NCBI GenBank assembly: GCA_001244265.2
Contig: CDLV01000018.1
Location: 124,001 to 188,000, forward strand
Reading direction: 5' to 3'
Source: Microbotryum violaceum
Taxonomy: Eukaryota
Length of the DNA: 64,000 nucleotides
This document shows positions 6,011-9,960 of the stretch, in pieces (positions within the stretch are counted from its first letter, which is position 1; every line of letters starts with the position of its first letter). The notes beneath the pieces were generated by a model, which did no database searches, was not told where the DNA came from, and saw only the letters and a list, made by a program, of their open reading frames with translations. The position numbers and the translations under genes were made by a program.

Positions 6011-9000
6011 TCATTCTTCATCATTGTTGACGCCCTTCGTCTTCGTCTGAACGGCCTCCTGGTGCAAGACAAGCAAGGGATGCTGCTCAAATTCCTTTAA
6101 TGTTCTGCAAAAGCCTGTACCGTTTTTCTTGATTGACGGTGATGTGAATTTCCCCTTCATCACGCCAGTTAGATCGTGTGGAATCCTTGACCTCGTAGTT
6201 GATGCTTGACAAGTCCGGTTTGAGCGAATTTCTGATACAGCGCCCATCGACTTGACTTGACGAATGCGCGTGTTGCCCTGATGAGACAGGTTGGAGTAAA
6301 CTCCCGGAGCGATGACACGCAGCTCTTGTATCACGGCATTTGCGAAAAGAGCGAGGAGTCAAGACTTTGAACACTTTCATAAGTTGTGCTTGACTTCTTG
6401 TAAATGTTCCTCACTGCAGGGAAGATGACAAGTAAACTGCGCAGTCACAGTGCTAGTCAGTCATGTGAGGTTTCCCCACACAAGTAGTAGTTTGGCATAC
6501 CTATCCCGATTGCCAGTCGTTCCCCGCATTGTTCACCCGAAGGCAAACCCATAGGTTCTTCTGGGATTCCATACACGACCAGTATGTCCACCTTGAGAGA
6601 ACGGAGTGCAGACACATCACCATCAACAGCTCGGACGAGTACGTGGTTCGACATGATCTGACCATAGACCTCTTGTCGTCCTTTCATTTTGTCCTGTGGT
6701 GTCGGAGTCAAATGTAAGCGCAAGAAAAGGCACGCCCCAGCTTGCGTCATGATACATCACGAATCAGCGACTAACGTGAGATCGTCCCTCGGTGATGATC
6801 GCAGTTGTCGCTTGCTCGTGCAAAGTCTTCTCCCGGATATTTATCCCTGAAGCGAAGGTGCCTCTCGTTCTCCACAGACTGTCGATACCTTTCCATTCCC
6901 ATTGTCTCGACTATCCGTCGAAGTGCGGCAGAATGCACGTTGCCGCGGTGCTCGGTTCGGTTTTGGGCAAAGGGTTGATCTGACGCTACGTTCTGCGCGC
7001 CACCTTGCACTTGATCTTCTCGAGGTGTCGGCATTGGTGTGCACGTCGTCGAGCGAGCAAGCTGTCCAAGTCGAGTGTGGGGACAGAGTAGAGGGCCCCC
7101 TTCTCTAGAAGATTACGCGGGTACGGGGGCGCTTCCCACTGGTTGGGAACACGGGTCTGTATCGGTAAATGCATCGATCAACCAATAATTGTGTTCACTC
7201 ACGGATTGCTCATGCTCATGGCATGCTTCGGCCAGGATCGTTTGAAACTGTCGATCTTCTTCTTCTGCATCGGCTTGATCGAAGCCAGCATCAACAGCAT
7301 CGCTGAGGGTTCAATATACGGTTGTTAGTGATCGTTTGTTGCTCTCAAACACCAAGCTACGTACATCAGAGCTTCCTGGTCAATGTCAAGCGCAGTCACC
7401 GAAAGAAGCGCGTCGCATTCCTCGCGTCGCATAATACACGGTAATGGCTCCGATCCGACAAGACGGAGACGATCGAGGACTTGGTTCAGACCAGCCTCGT
7501 TCACGTTCGGAGGGACACCTTGGCGAACGGTCGACTCGGATGTGTTCCGGAGTACCAGGCGGAGCCTGCAGACACACGCAAGATTCTACCCACATCAGTA
7601 TCCGGGATCGACTCATGAATGAAGAGGATGCAAACTCACTGAGGGCCTGTAGAAAGTCTTGGAGGCGTGTAGATCGACCTCGGAGATAGACGCGGTCGAC
7701 AGCTGTCCAACGTATGCGAGTGAGGTGATGATGAGCACTGGCAAGCTCACGCTCCCGAATCGCGTCAGCGTTAGCTAATCGAGGAATCCATTCTTGAATG
7801 TTGTAGATGATATATCGATTTTTTTCTGCCTTGTCGAGATGGGCCCATAACGCCGAGGCATCGAGAGGAAGGCGCATTGACGACCCCGATACGACGATAG
7901 ATCGATAGCCATCGAGATAAGCCAAGGATATAAAGCTTTGATCGGAAAACTTTCCGATAGACTGCTTCGAGGGGCGTGGCAGCGCGTCAAAATGTCGAGG
8001 GTCATCTTTCGATAGAGCAAGTCGGACAGAAGCGTCGGGCGCAGGTAGGTCGTACACGAGTAGGTCAACGAGGCGTAGGTCGGCAACAGGGCTCAAGATT
8101 GCAAATTCCTCGGAGGTGAGAGCTTCTGAAAAGGAGTTGGGCTCATTCAAATTGCACAAGGTCTTCAAGCTTACGAGGCTACCCACCGGGGCTCGCGCCC
8201 TGGGCTATCGTTGGGTGTTCACTCGCAAAGAAGACGCTGAAGGCAATATCATCAGCTACAAGGCTCGGCTCGTTATCCAAGGCTTCGCTCAACGACTTGG
8301 GATCGACTACAACGAGACGTTTGCTCCTGTCTCGTCGATCACGACGATTTTGTTTCTCATTGCCATCTCTGCCGCTCTCGGACTCGTCCTCGAACAGTTC
8401 GACTATGATTCTGCGTTTCTCAACGGGATCATGGAGGAGGATGTCTACATGAAGATTCCTGAAGGATGGACTGGTGGCTCTCAGCCCGGTCACGCTCTCA
8501 AGCTCCTTAAATCTATGTACGGCACCAAGCAGGCTCCTCGGCAATGGAACGCGGCTCTCCACAAGCTGATGACGGATCGCGGCTATACGCGCTCCAATGT
8601 CGATGCTTGTCTGTACTTCAAGTATCATGGCAAGTCGTTCGCAATCATCACTTTGTACGTTGATGATGGGCTTGCTGCATCGAACAACCAGGCTTTTCTG
8701 GACTCCGAGATTTCGGCTTTCGATGCGGTCTACAAGCTCAAGCGACTTGGCCCGGTCAAGACGTTCCTCGGTCTCGAGTTTATTCGTACCAAGGATTTCA
8801 TCTTTGTCCACCAGTCTAAGTACATTAGAGGCTTACTCGAGCACTACACGTTCGAAAGCAAGTCGAAGAAGCCGGTCGCGACTCCAATGGAGGATCGCGT
8901 CGTTTCGTCTTCTACTGCTCCGTTCGCCGACATTCTCGTTTATCAATCGGCTGTGGGAGCGCTTCAATATGCTGCGCAACGTGTTCGTCCCGATATCGCG

Positions 9001-9960
9001 ACTGCTGTTCGTGCGGTGGCGAAGTGCGTGGCTGCTCCAACCGAAGGAGACTGGATCTGCGTCAAGCGAATCTTTCGCTATCTTTCTGACACCGTCGACT
9101 ATGGGCTACTCTACCGCGTAGGCGGTTCTACCAAATTCGAGGTGTACAGTGACGCGTCGTTTGGTTGCGATCACGACAACGGAAGATCTGTGGGAGCGTA
9201 TGTCGTCATTATGGCTGGCGCTGCCATTTCCTGGAAGTCGAAGCAACAAACGATGGTCGCTTCTTCTACAGCAGAGTCTGAGACTCTGGCTGCTTCAACC
9301 GCAGCAAAGGAGGCTATCGGTCTTCGCAACCTGGCGTCCGAACTTCGCATCAATCAAGGTCAATCTACTGTTCTGCACGAGGACAACCAACCTTGCATCG
9401 ATTTGGCGAAGAATCCCGGAGCTCGAGGTCGTACACGCCATTGGAATGTGCATCATTTCTATCTACGCGAACGAATCGAGGTTGGCGATATCGATCTCCG
9501 CTACTGTCCGACCAATCTGAACACGGCCGACATTTTCACGAAACCCCTGCCCAAACTCAAGTTCGCTACGCATCGCGAGGGACTCGGGATGGTCTCGCTG
9601 GCTACCTTGGCATGGGGGAGTGTCGTTTGATATGTGTCTGTGCCTGTGGTATCTGCGCGGATGCGCGTGCGTTTAGTCATTAGTCACTTTGGTATTGTAG
9701 TTTGATCTGTTTAAGTTAGGGAGCGCGCGGGGCTTTCTTCCAGCGCGGCTGTTTACTCTTGATAGCTTTCTTATCACTCGCTCTACATTGTGGTCCTGAC
9801 TTCTCGGCGTCGTGCACCCTCACCTATCGGAAGGCTTTACTTCCGCGCTCGCATCTTTTCTAGGTCAACGAGGCGTAGGTCGGCAACAGGGCTCAAGATT
9901 GCAAATTCCTCCCTCGGAGGTGAGAGCAAAGTTCGGTTCGATGTTAATGATCACAGGCAT
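6011..9960 (-). pseudogene. Decayed multi-exon gene of the TIR element (product unknown), interrupted by the Copia fragment
   Basis: ATG at 9960 ([23 protein letters not shown]...) joins ORF 7386-8123 once the insertion is removed. Several GT-AG introns and frameshifts link protein-like segments down to a stop at about 6011. Confidence 0.65.
8124..9860 (+). mobile_element. Ty1/Copia LTR retrotransposon fragment: RT + RNase H, PPT (9614-9620) and truncated 3' LTR from 9621
   Basis: About 500 uninterrupted codons with [56 protein letters not shown] and [15 protein letters not shown] followed by TG marks the PPT/LTR start. No CA terminus or 5-bp TSD found. Confidence 0.95.

What the first reader, a model, noticed from the sequence alone, without database searches (positions are those of the whole stretch)
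6011..9960. Reconstructable resident gene may tie an uncharacterised fungal protein family to transposition
Seen: joining exons and skipping frameshifts gives a several-hundred-residue protein: MPVIINIE..., FISLAYLDGY...NIQEWIPRL, an acidic patch (DAGFDQADAEEEDRQ), LDLDSLLARRRAHQ, ENERHLRF, then VRNIYKK...VIQELRVIAPGVY. A TATA-like TATATA at ~12454-12460 would lie about 120 bp upstream before the LINE inserted. Inference from memory, unverified: this motif order resembles the C-terminal half of an expanded family of fungal hypothetical proteins whose longer members carry QDxxHxxKxxRN and ExxFG motifs like P/THAP9-type transposases. Those catalytic motifs are not visible here, so this would be a truncated, inactive or accessory version.
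Basis: inference. Interest (0 to 1): 0.75.

Follow-up and report, generated by a model that had tools for sequence, protein, structure and literature searches.

The report
Decayed fungal P-type transposon copy
The supposed gene is the gutted remnant of a cut-and-paste jumping gene whose intact relatives in many mushroom-type fungi encode a P-element-like transposase fused to a SUMO-type protease.

Summary
They do not belong to a resident host gene. They lie inside a 7,001-bp element (5658-12658) bounded by 37-nt terminal inverted repeats (34/37) and a perfect 8-bp target-site duplication, TACCAGCC.

The element keeps only the first ~190 and last ~350 codons of a ~1,700-residue protein. The Ulp1 protease domain, zinc fingers, HTH and whole RNase H catalytic core are deleted (junction ~7535-7540). 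A copia RT fragment (8108-9911) and a LINE-like piece (10038-12343) are nested inside it, and contigs of other copies lack both.

Long relatives (301 cluster representatives) carry DDTKL, DGTExER, QDSKHxLKTxRN and CEHxFG motifs. A confident AlphaFold model of that core matches Drosophila P element transposase far better than anything else (Z 25.9, next 11.9).

Full-length relatives on metagenome contigs are 6.3-6.6 kb. Their inverted repeats start with the same AGGACCCC tip as the window's, and three have perfect 8-bp duplications.

This is an internally deleted, non-autonomous, decayed copy of a THAP-less, Ulp1-fused P-type DNA transposon. The copy itself is ordinary. The family is poorly described.

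The parts
5650..5657 (.). Target-site duplication, copy 1 (TACCAGCC)
   Evidence: Read. The script gives 8 of 8 identity with 12659-12666.
5658..5694 (+). Terminal inverted repeat at the gene-downstream (3') end. Its tip is AGGACCCCC.
   Evidence: I1: 37 nt, 92% complementary; the 32-mer occurs only at the two ends, with 0.00 expected from 100 shuffles. Full-length relatives have the same 8-nt tip. Flank contigs of X1 and X5 stop at 5683.
5695..6010 (-). 3' subterminal non-coding region with a GGACAT-type motif (5716-5727 and 5750-5765)
   Evidence: motif at 5750-5765, 1 mismatch. One search shows ATGTCC about 60 nt from the tip, where relatives have TGTCCGGAC. Contig depth is 5-20 times the flank depth.
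6011..7534 (-). Remnant of the C-terminal third of the transposase gene (STVRQGVPPNV... to ...VIQELRVIAPGVY/INYEVKDST...). It has several exons and frameshifts.
   Evidence: tblastn of P0002-P0006, P0010, P0013 and P0073. It maps to residues 1306-1562 of the 1650-aa P0158. There are indels versus other copies at 7004 and 6249.
7535..7540 (-). Internal-deletion junction. Upstream the reading SAWYSGTH continues as in the long form (SAWYSETH|MDWML...). Downstream the sequence resumes at STVRQGVPP in another frame. The authentic frame stops at 7501-7503.
   Evidence: Comparison of the window sequence with P0156 and P0006. The frame 7501-7635 is listed.
7541..8107 (-). Exon 1 (distal part), a 74-nt intron (7566-7639) and the start of exon 2. 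These encode the N-terminal domain and the first helix of the Ulp1 domain.
   Evidence: P0001 = 7641-8120. It is 93% identical to P0156 8-173. The splice is inferred from P0156 reading ...QDFLQILS|SAWYSETH.
8108..9911 (+). Nested copia-type RT/RNase H fragment, 5'-truncated. It is flanked by a 63/67-nt direct duplication of exon 1 (8061-8123 and 9861-9927).
   Evidence: RVT_2 2.1e-59. Direct repeats D2 and D5. The joint 8107->9912 skips 1804 nt in X1, X5 and X8.
9912..9960 (-). Start of exon 1 (MPVIINIEPNFALTSE)
   Evidence: 16 of 16 identical to P0156 1-16.
9961..10037 (-). 5' leader between the LINE insertion site and the ATG
   Evidence: It is contiguous with 12344 in other copies. The P0005 N-terminus spans both sides.
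10038..12343 (-). Nested LINE-like retroelement piece: a gag-like ORF, a proline-rich stretch, a zf-RVT tail and a (TAAA)n end. It is flanked by CAGTTT on both sides.
   Evidence: Weak zf-RVT hit, 0.0034. Joints 10037/10038->12344 in X1, X5 and X8. Tail and duplication read. Other tail copies lie at 29464-29703 and 26996-27334.
12344..12621 (-). 5' subterminal region with the TATA-like box (12454-12460), a short upstream ATG (12373) and three ~45-nt repeats carrying AAATTTGGACATTTT (12519-12635)
   Evidence: D1; 4 motif matches against 0.39 expected. Relatives have TCCGGACA at the same distance from the tip.
12622..12658 (-). Terminal inverted repeat at the gene-upstream (5') end
   Evidence: Flank contigs of X5 and X8 begin at 12629, which is 30 nt into the repeat.
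12659..12666 (.). Target-site duplication, copy 2 (TACCAGCC)

Best explanation
Window 5658-12658 is one insertion of a cut-and-paste DNA transposon of the P-element type. It is an internally deleted, non-autonomous copy that has since decayed.

The intact ancestor (about 6.3-6.6 kb in relatives) encodes one ~1,700-residue protein. Its parts, in order, are an N-terminal domain of unknown fold, a Ulp1/C48 cysteine protease domain, BED-like and CxC zinc fingers, an HTH, an RNase H (D,D,E) core split by an alpha-helical insertion domain as in P element transposase, and a C-terminal region.

By inference, that protein binds the AGGACCCC-tipped inverted repeats and the subterminal TCCGGACA-type sites, excises the element and reinserts it with an 8-bp staggered cut. 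One deletion removed everything between the first helix of the Ulp1 domain and the C-terminal third. The shortened element then spread to several chromosomes using transposase supplied in trans.

The window copy later received a LINE-like insertion in its leader, a copia fragment in exon 1, and frameshifts. It can make no transposase. At most it could make a ~200-residue N-terminal peptide in copies without the copia fragment.

Shown here: termini, TSD, deletion, nested insertions, multi-copy state, P-type fold of relatives, and shared termini in relatives. Inferred: trans-mobilisation, which sites the protein binds, and the role of the protease.
For: Termini. The TIRs are 37 nt, 92% complementary and 6,927 nt apart. 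The 32-mer occurs only at these two places in 64 kb, with 0.00 expected. A perfect 8-bp TSD abuts both tips. Single-copy flank contigs run 26 and 30 nt into the TIRs and stop there.

Deletion derivative. Exon 1 is 93% identical to the long form P0156, whose residues 174-1127 give 0 HSPs in the window. The short proteins map to residues 13-90 and 1306-1562 of the 1650-aa P0158.

Multi-copy with the same junction. P0002-P0005 lie on four different M. silenes-dioicae contigs. Contigs of three runs carry the element without the copia and LINE pieces, at about four times flank depth. The tool warns that depth is not copy number.

Transposase identity of relatives. There are 301 hits at E<=1e-3 and 82 at E<=1e-10. 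The conserved motifs are DDTKL, DGTExER, QDSKHxLKTxRNN, DRQDD and CEHxFG. The model has pLDDT 85.8. Foldseek's top hits are P element transposase 6pe2/6p5a at E 2.5e-11 and 5.5e-11, against about 1e-4 for Hermes and RAG1. VIA gives Z 25.9, rmsd 3.7 and 392 aligned residues, against Z 11.9 for Transib. Tnp_P_element HTH is above threshold in P0022. The Ulp1 domain scores 4e-17 against yeast Ulp1.

Same termini in independent full-length elements. Eight metagenome loci have TIRs starting AGGACCCC and spanning 6,340-6,629 bp around the gene. L006, L027 and L047 have perfect 8-bp TSDs. The tip lies at the expected place upstream in 10 of 16 loci and downstream in 13 of 18 loci that have enough flank. 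Subterminal TCCGGACA sits at the same offsets as the window's TTGGACA and ATGTCC motifs.
Against: Only this one copy's ends could be read in the window's own lineage. The ends of a full-length copy from the same genus (the P0156 and P0007 loci) were not available, so the same-family autonomous partner is inferred.

No empty site was seen. In runs X1 and X5 contigs from the left flank, and in X5 and X8 contigs from the right flank, read into the TIR, so excision or polymorphism is not shown.

Four of the seven distinct metagenome elements with both flanks (L005, L014=L019, L017, L035) show no 8-bp TSD, with only 1-3 of 8 matching. Chimeric assembly of repeats is a possible cause but was not tested.

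At sequence level the link to P elements is thin. Among 22 relatives scanned, no P-type RNase H, GBD or C-terminal Pfam model was listed at E<=0.01 and only 1 hit the P HTH model. A profile search of PDB sequences found only Ulp1/SENP proteases. No THAP domain was found.

The terminal ~250 nt have several times more contig depth than the interior. This fits many shorter derivatives, but it would also fit ends shared with another element.
Confidence: 0.9

Rival explanations
1. A resident, single-locus host gene of an uncharacterised family that happens to have been hit by a copia fragment and a LINE. The inverted repeats and 8-bp repeat are coincidental.
For: The pieces splice into a several-hundred-residue protein, and gene predictors annotated such proteins (P0002-P0005). 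A TATA-like box precedes it. The insertion is present at the same site in runs labelled as three organisms.
Against: The 32-nt arm match has 0.00 expected occurrences, and an abutting 8 of 8 duplication adds about 1.5e-5. The family is multi-copy on different contigs. The reading frame across the junction is broken. Relatives in unrelated fungi carry the same TIR tip and 8-bp TSDs.
Confidence: 0.02
2. The element is real, but the family belongs to hAT (or another 8-bp-TSD superfamily) and not to the P superfamily.
For: hAT elements also make 8-bp TSDs and often carry BED fingers. zf-BED was found in P0012. Hermes appears among the fold matches (E 1e-4, Z 9.0). No THAP domain was found, and the Pfam P-type catalytic models do not fire.
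Against: P element transposase scores Z 25.9 with 392 of 442 residues aligned, including the HTH and the insertion domain. Hermes reaches Z 9.0 and RAG1/Transib 10-12. No hAT dimerisation domain was listed in 22 proteins. I also know it only from recall.
Confidence: 0.05
3. The short form is not mere debris but a selected regulator. Its ~200-residue N-terminal product would dampen transposition, as the KP internal-deletion derivative does for Drosophila P elements. This can hold together with the main explanation.
For: One deletion variant with a fixed junction reached several chromosomes. In copies without the copia fragment the authentic splice gives an open N-terminal product ending 12 codons after the junction. 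The N-terminal domain is conserved family-wide and folds confidently (pLDDT 85.4).
Against: The recognisable DNA-binding parts (BED/CxC fingers, HTH) are in the deleted segment. The N-terminal domain has no conserved Cys/His in the >=90%-conserved columns. The window copy itself has exon 1 split by 1.8 kb of copia. No expression data were examined.
Confidence: 0.08
4. A gene fragment captured and spread by a Helitron.
For: P0006 (1763 aa) joins a Helitron-type N-terminal zinc-finger stretch, this family, and Helitron_like_N (2.3e-28) in one gene model.
Against: The window copy has its own TIRs and TSD, and tblastn with P0006 found no part of its Helitron region in the window. In P0006 the family sits between two Helitron pieces, as expected for a nested insertion read through by a gene predictor. 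The DNA of that locus was not available.
Confidence: 0.02

Closest known systems
Drosophila P element and its internally deleted non-autonomous derivatives (including KP)
   Same: 8-bp TSD and ~30-nt TIRs. Subterminal sites are spaced differently at the two ends. The transposase has an HTH plus an RNase H core split by an alpha-helical insertion domain (fold match Z 25.9). Populations are dominated by internal-deletion copies. P element features are taken from passages of PMC7776569.
   Different: No THAP domain; the review states that THAP is absent from fungi. There is an extra N-terminal domain and a Ulp1 protease domain. The protein is about twice as long and the element is 6.3-6.6 kb instead of 2.9 kb. 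The TIR sequence is unrelated. The Pfam P-type catalytic models do not detect it. GTP dependence is unknown.
THAP9 / Pdre-type vertebrate P-like transposons
   Same: They belong to the same structural class. The UniRef name of P0022 is 'THAP9-like helix-turn-helix domain-containing protein', and Tnp_P_element HTH is above threshold in that protein. They also make 8-bp TSDs (PMC7776569 passages).
   Different: No THAP domain. It is fungal and multi-copy with intact TIRs, not a domesticated single gene.
Ulp1-carrying transposases (Mutator-like KI-MULEs, Ginger1)
   Same: A C48/Ulp1 protease domain is fused to, or encoded with, a DDE transposase (PMC2836005 passages). Here the profile scores 4e-17 against yeast Ulp1.
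   Different: The catalytic core here is P-type, not Mutator or integrase-type. The protease lies N-terminal to the transposase core. In five literature searches I found no paper describing a P-type plus Ulp1 fusion. Repbase could not be searched.
hAT elements (Hermes, Ac)
   Same: 8-bp TSD, an occasional BED finger, and an all-alpha insertion domain in the RNase H core.
   Different: Much weaker fold match (Z 9.0 against 25.9). No hAT dimerisation domain was listed.

Membership tests
P superfamily of DNA transposons (P element / THAP9 type) | 8-bp target-site duplication | tested here: met
   The window has TACCAGCC at 8 of 8. L006, L027 and L047 are perfect. Four other distinct two-ended metagenome elements match at only 1-3 of 8.
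P superfamily of DNA transposons (P element / THAP9 type) | Terminal inverted repeats of a few tens of nt, with subterminal sites | tested here: met
   The window has 37-nt TIRs, 34 of 37 matching. Relatives have 21-34 nt TIRs with the same AGGACCCC tip, plus TCCGGACA-type subterminal motifs.
P superfamily of DNA transposons (P element / THAP9 type) | HTH plus an RNase H core interrupted by an alpha-helical insertion domain, structurally like P element transposase | tested here: met
   Met for long relatives only: model of P0022 660-1400, Z 25.9, 392 of 442 residues aligned, model 185-654 to chain 135-565. The window copy has this region deleted.
P superfamily of DNA transposons (P element / THAP9 type) | Sequence match to the curated P-type models (Tnp_P_element HTH; P-type RNase H, GBD and C-terminal models) | tested here: inconclusive
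   The HTH model PF12017 scored 25.9 bits (cut-off 23) in 1 of 22 relatives. No other P-type model was listed at E<=0.01. There were 0 hits in the five Microbotryum proteins.
P superfamily of DNA transposons (P element / THAP9 type) | N-terminal THAP zinc-finger DNA-binding domain | tested here: not met
   No THAP model was listed in any of the 27 proteins scanned. A BED finger was found in P0012, and conserved Cys pairs precede the HTH. The review PMC7776569 says THAP is absent from fungi.
P superfamily of DNA transposons (P element / THAP9 type) | GTP as cofactor | not testable with these tools
   The insertion domain aligns structurally, but nucleotide binding cannot be judged here.
Non-autonomous internal-deletion derivative | Keeps both element ends but lacks the catalytic region | tested here: met
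   Both TIRs are present. P0156 174-1127 and P0006 148-975 give no HSP in the window.
Non-autonomous internal-deletion derivative | Several copies share one deletion junction | tested here: met
   P0002-P0005, on four contigs, all read ...QDFLQILSELRLVLRNTSESTVRQGVPP across the junction. Contigs of X1, X5 and X8 cover 7548-8107 at above-flank depth.
Non-autonomous internal-deletion derivative | An autonomous partner with the same ends exists in the same genome | not testable with these tools
   Long-form proteins exist in the genus (P0007, P0156), but their DNA and ends could not be fetched. No genome is held for the window.
Ulp1/C48 cysteine protease domain | His-Asp-Cys catalytic triad in a C48 fold | tested here: met
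   Met for long relatives only. The profile scores 4e-17 against yeast Ulp1. Peptidase_C48 is above the cut-off in 11 of 22 proteins and at E<=0.01 in 17 of 22. The HW, D and C columns are at least 90% conserved. The window keeps only the first helix.
hAT superfamily | hAT C-terminal dimerisation domain and a Hermes-like fold | tested here: not met
   No hAT dimerisation model was listed in 22 proteins. Hermes scores Z 9.0 against 25.9 for the P element.

The most novel reading that the evidence does not exclude
The window copy is the visible tip of a large clade of P-superfamily transposons in Basidiomycota that has not been formally described. The clade has no THAP domain and carries an N-terminal orphan-fold domain plus a Ulp1 protease. 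Its termini are conserved across classes (AGGACCCC tip), and its subterminal TCCGGACA sites lie in the same orientation at both ends with unequal spacing. This would overturn the published picture that P elements are rare, sporadic and probably horizontally acquired in fungi. The widely spread short form might in addition act as a KP-like regulator.
Probability: 0.35. Interest if true: 0.6.

Novelty: new variant of a known kind. Interest (0 to 1): 0.45.

Why it matters
Public databases call these proteins 'hypothetical' or 'ubiquitin-like protease domain-containing'. A fungal survey reported P elements as single occurrences, with RepBase entries only from Pucciniales and Allomyces (PMC5751038 passages).

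This report assigns a mechanism, ends and a target-site signature to a family with hundreds of cluster representatives. Genome annotators can mask these elements, and gene counts inflated by their fragments can be corrected. M. silenes-dioicae is noted as an outlier for host-TE fusion genes in 10.1101/2023.10.20.563377 (passage).

It also offers a second, very distant P-type transposase for studying how the insertion domain works. And it gives another independent case of a SUMO-type protease riding on a DNA transposase.

Tried and rejected
- Pfam on 12 window frames and on the five short or chimeric Microbotryum proteins found nothing for the family itself.
- The search for homologous proteins on P0006 148-1330 in the 'near' length band returned only the query.
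- A profile search of PDB sequences found only Ulp1/SENP proteases and no transposase. The fold search was needed to see the transposase.
- The N-terminal domain was modelled at pLDDT 85.4, but no structural relative appeared. Foldseek's best E was 1.2. VIA against 48,161 chains gave a best Z of 3.6 and none at Z>=5. This does not show a new fold.
- No empty site appeared in the four runs laid, and X21 covered only the copia and LINE parts. This says nothing about absence.
- The wide alignment A2 was too diverse for the search for related loci. A narrower alignment, A4, worked.
- The Helitron-capture and host-gene readings were considered and set aside (see rivals).
- Five literature searches, plus passages of four TE papers and of the Ginger paper, which lists Ulp1 on Ginger1 and Mutator transposases only, gave no description of this family. 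I opened no supplementary TE libraries, and Repbase is not in the library. The family may be catalogued there.
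Full report
**What is in the window.**
They are not chance frames. The first exon (P0001, 7641-8120) finds five proteins of Microbotryum silenes-dioicae at E 6e-74 to 6e-40. tblastn of those proteins back onto the window tiles 9960-6014 in several frames. Pfam recognises nothing in the window frames except a copia-type reverse transcriptase on the opposite strand (7942-9630, RVT_2 2e-59) and a weak zf-RVT tail at 10302-10871. 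By protein similarity alone, the window comes from a Microbotryum-like (anther-smut) genome.

**Boundaries.**
A repeat scan of 5500-13000 found one long inverted pair, 5658-5694 and 12622-12658 (37 nt, 92% complementary). The 32-nt core occurs only at those two places in 64 kb, with none in 100 shuffles. Immediately outside both arms is the same octamer, TACCAGCC (5650-5657 and 12659-12666). Inside the arms are repeats carrying AAATTTGGACATTTT: three at the 12.6-kb end and one at the 5.7-kb end. That is 4 matches against 0.39 expected. The unit is therefore 5658-12658, 7,001 bp, with TIRs and an 8-bp target-site duplication. It lies between a protein-kinase gene fragment (3865-4926) and an FAD-oxidase gene (13040-13540).

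**Evidence from other copies.**
Logan contigs of four public runs were laid on 5300-13000.
- In X1, X5 and X8, contigs join 8107 to 9912 (skipping 1,804 nt, the copia fragment). They also join 10037/10038 to 12344 (skipping 2,305-2,306 nt, the LINE-like piece, with 10-11 other letters in between).
- One 737-nt contig of X1 carries both joints.
- Single-copy flank contigs (depth 77 in X1, 21-23 in X5) enter the TIRs and stop at 5683 and 12629. That is about one assembly word into the repeat, so repetition starts at the TIR tips.
- Interior depth is about four times flank depth and terminal depth is higher still. The tool warns that depth is not copy number.
- No contig showed an empty site. X21 covered only the retroelement parts.

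**The 'gene' is a deletion derivative.**
A cluster look-up gave P0156 (1,127 aa, M. silenes-dioicae). It starts MPVIINIE..., runs through exon 1 (93% identical to the window) and continues ...QDFLQILS|SAWYSETHMDWML... into a Ulp1 domain. The window has the same intron (7566-7639) and then SAWYSGTH. At about 7535-7540 it jumps to STVRQGVPPNV..., which in long proteins lies some 1,100 residues further on. The short proteins map to residues 13-90 and 1306-1562 of the 1,650-aa P0158. Residues 174-1127 of P0156 have no HSP in the window.

With the authentic splice, the frame stops 12 codons after the junction (7501-7503). The annotated short proteins P0002-P0005 avoid this by using another acceptor, and all read the same junction sequence. 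Since they lie on four different contigs, one deletion variant was amplified. The window copy is further damaged. It lacks a base at 7004, which gives ...EKIKCKVARRT* instead of ...EKIKFKGGAQNV.... It also has five extra bases at 6249.

**What the intact protein is.**
phmmer with P0006 148-1330 against 1.84 billion cluster representatives gave 301 hits at E<=1e-3 and 82 at E<=1e-10. Many of these are 1,400-2,000 residues long. Source labels place them in Microbotryum (three species) and in Agaricomycetes (Mycena, Artomyces, Fistulina). All are annotated as hypothetical, 'ubiquitin-like protease domain' or 'THAP9-like HTH domain' proteins.

Pfam results on 22 of the hits:
- Peptidase_C48 in 17 at E<=0.01, of which 11 are above the cut-off.
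- zf-BED in one.
- The Tnp_P_element HTH in one.
- Nothing else.

Alignments show near-invariant DDTKL, SYxxDGTExER, QDSKHxLKTxRNNLxSGAR, DRQDD and CEHxFGxxR. A profile search of PDB sequences saw only Ulp1/SENP proteases, at 4e-17.

An AlphaFold model of the core (P0022 660-1400, with 31 aligned homologues) has pLDDT 85.8. Foldseek ranks the Drosophila P element transposase strand-transfer complex first (6pe2 at E 2.5e-11, 6p5a at 5.5e-11, TM 0.62-0.64 on the target). Hermes and RAG1 follow at about 1e-4. VIA-align gives Z 25.9, rmsd 3.7 Å and 392 of 442 residues, aligning model 185-654 to chain 135-565. That span covers the HTH, the RNase H core and the insertion domain. Transib scores 11.9, RAG1 about 10 and Hermes 9.0. 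No THAP domain was found. The P element review notes that THAP is absent from fungi (PMC7776569, passages).

**Independent test of the ends.**
A narrower alignment (A4) was used to scan metagenome contigs. Of 335 pattern matches, 101 encode relatives and 80 loci were kept. A script looked for inverted repeats bracketing the gene.
- Eight loci (L005, L006, L014, L017, L019, L027, L035, L048; L019 duplicates L014) have TIRs of roughly 20-35 nt. All begin AGGACCCC, the same tip as the window, and enclose 6,340-6,629 bp. L047 has the same tip.
- Perfect 8-bp TSDs flank L006 (GGCCAATC), L027 (AGCTGACC) and L047 (TTTGACAG).
- L005, L014/L019, L017 and L035 match at only 1-3 of 8.
- L048 is a contig that begins and ends exactly at the tips.
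- Across all 80 loci (412,909 nt) the tip octamer occurs 20 times in the gene's sense and 26 times in antisense. Fifteen and 24 of these lie at the expected upstream and downstream ends.
- Among loci with at least 700 nt beyond the extrapolated ORF ends, 10 of 16 have the upstream tip and 13 of 18 the downstream tip.
- Reading inward, most 5' ends have TCCGGACA about 37 nt from the tip. Most 3' ends have its reverse complement 50-65 nt from the tip. The window has TTGGACA and ATGTCC at the same places. The site therefore points the same way at both ends, with unequal spacing. This loosely recalls the unequal spacing of transposase sites at the two P element ends.

These shared ends tie the window's TIRs to this transposase family. 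I cannot say why four elements lack a TSD. Chimeric assembly of repeats is one untested possibility.

**Mechanism.**
The following are shown:
- a TIR/TSD-bounded, multi-copy element;
- loss of all catalytic and recognisable DNA-binding parts in the window copy;
- a P-type fold and conserved acidic motifs in intact relatives;
- common termini in those relatives.

The following are inferred:
- the intact protein excises and reinserts the element with an 8-bp stagger;
- the short form moved by using that protein in trans;
- the subterminal sites are its binding sites.

The role of the Ulp1 domain is unknown. Similar fusions are known for Mutator and Ginger1 transposases (PMC2836005 passages). The N-terminal domain that the short form retains is conserved across the family and folds confidently (pLDDT 85.4). 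It has no detectable structural relative, so a KP-like regulatory role for its ~200-residue product is only a possibility.

**Known or new.**
A fungal survey lists RepBase P elements only from Pucciniales and Allomyces, and found 11 transposase-bearing copies in its own data (PMC5751038 passages). A Microbotryum TE study reports TIR elements as 0.42% of genomes, and I saw no superfamily detail in the passages read (PMC10502011). Five searches found no paper on a Ulp1-fused P-type family. I opened no supplements, and Repbase is not searchable here.

I therefore rate the family as a new variant of a known kind. The window element itself is an ordinary decayed non-autonomous copy.

Noticed in passing
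window 8061-8123 and 9861-9927, flanking 8124-9860: The nested copia RT/RNase H fragment has no LTRs and no 5-bp TSD. Instead it sits between a 63-nt and a 67-nt direct duplication of the host exon; the second copy has 4 extra bases. This looks like capture during break repair or template switching, not integrase-mediated insertion.
   Followed up: partly
window 10038-12343, also 26996-27334 and 29464-29703: The LINE-like piece has a gag-like ORF and only the zf-RVT tail, so it is itself internally deleted. It ends in (TAAA)n and is flanked by CAGTTT. Two more copies of its tail lie elsewhere in the window. P0003 of M. silenes-dioicae carries the same tail in front of MPVIINIE, so that insertion may be shared between species.
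   Followed up: partly
P0006 (M. silenes-dioicae, 1763 aa): This is a chimeric gene model. Helitron N-terminal zinc-finger text and Helitron_like_N (2.3e-28) bracket a mid-length form of this family, probably a P-type element nested in a Helitron and read through by the predictor.
   Followed up: no
L001-L080 ends, and window 12610-12625 and 5716-5765: The subterminal TCCGGACA-type motif points the same way at both element ends and sits at different distances from the two tips (about 37 nt against 50-65 nt). This holds in most relatives and in the window.
   Followed up: partly
L048 1-6608; L001 end 6324 of 6327; L038 end 4013 of 4013: Several metagenome contigs begin or end exactly at the AGGACCCC tip. 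This is expected if assemblies break at repeat edges. A circular or excised form is not excluded.
   Followed up: no
P0156 1-150 = window 9960-9913 + 8107-7700: The N-terminal domain is conserved family-wide and modelled at pLDDT 85.4, yet no solved structure scores above Z 3.6.
   Followed up: yes
window 5300-5683 and 12629-13000 in runs X1, X5, X8: The insertion site is occupied in runs carrying three different organism labels, so this copy is probably old and fixed.
   Followed up: no
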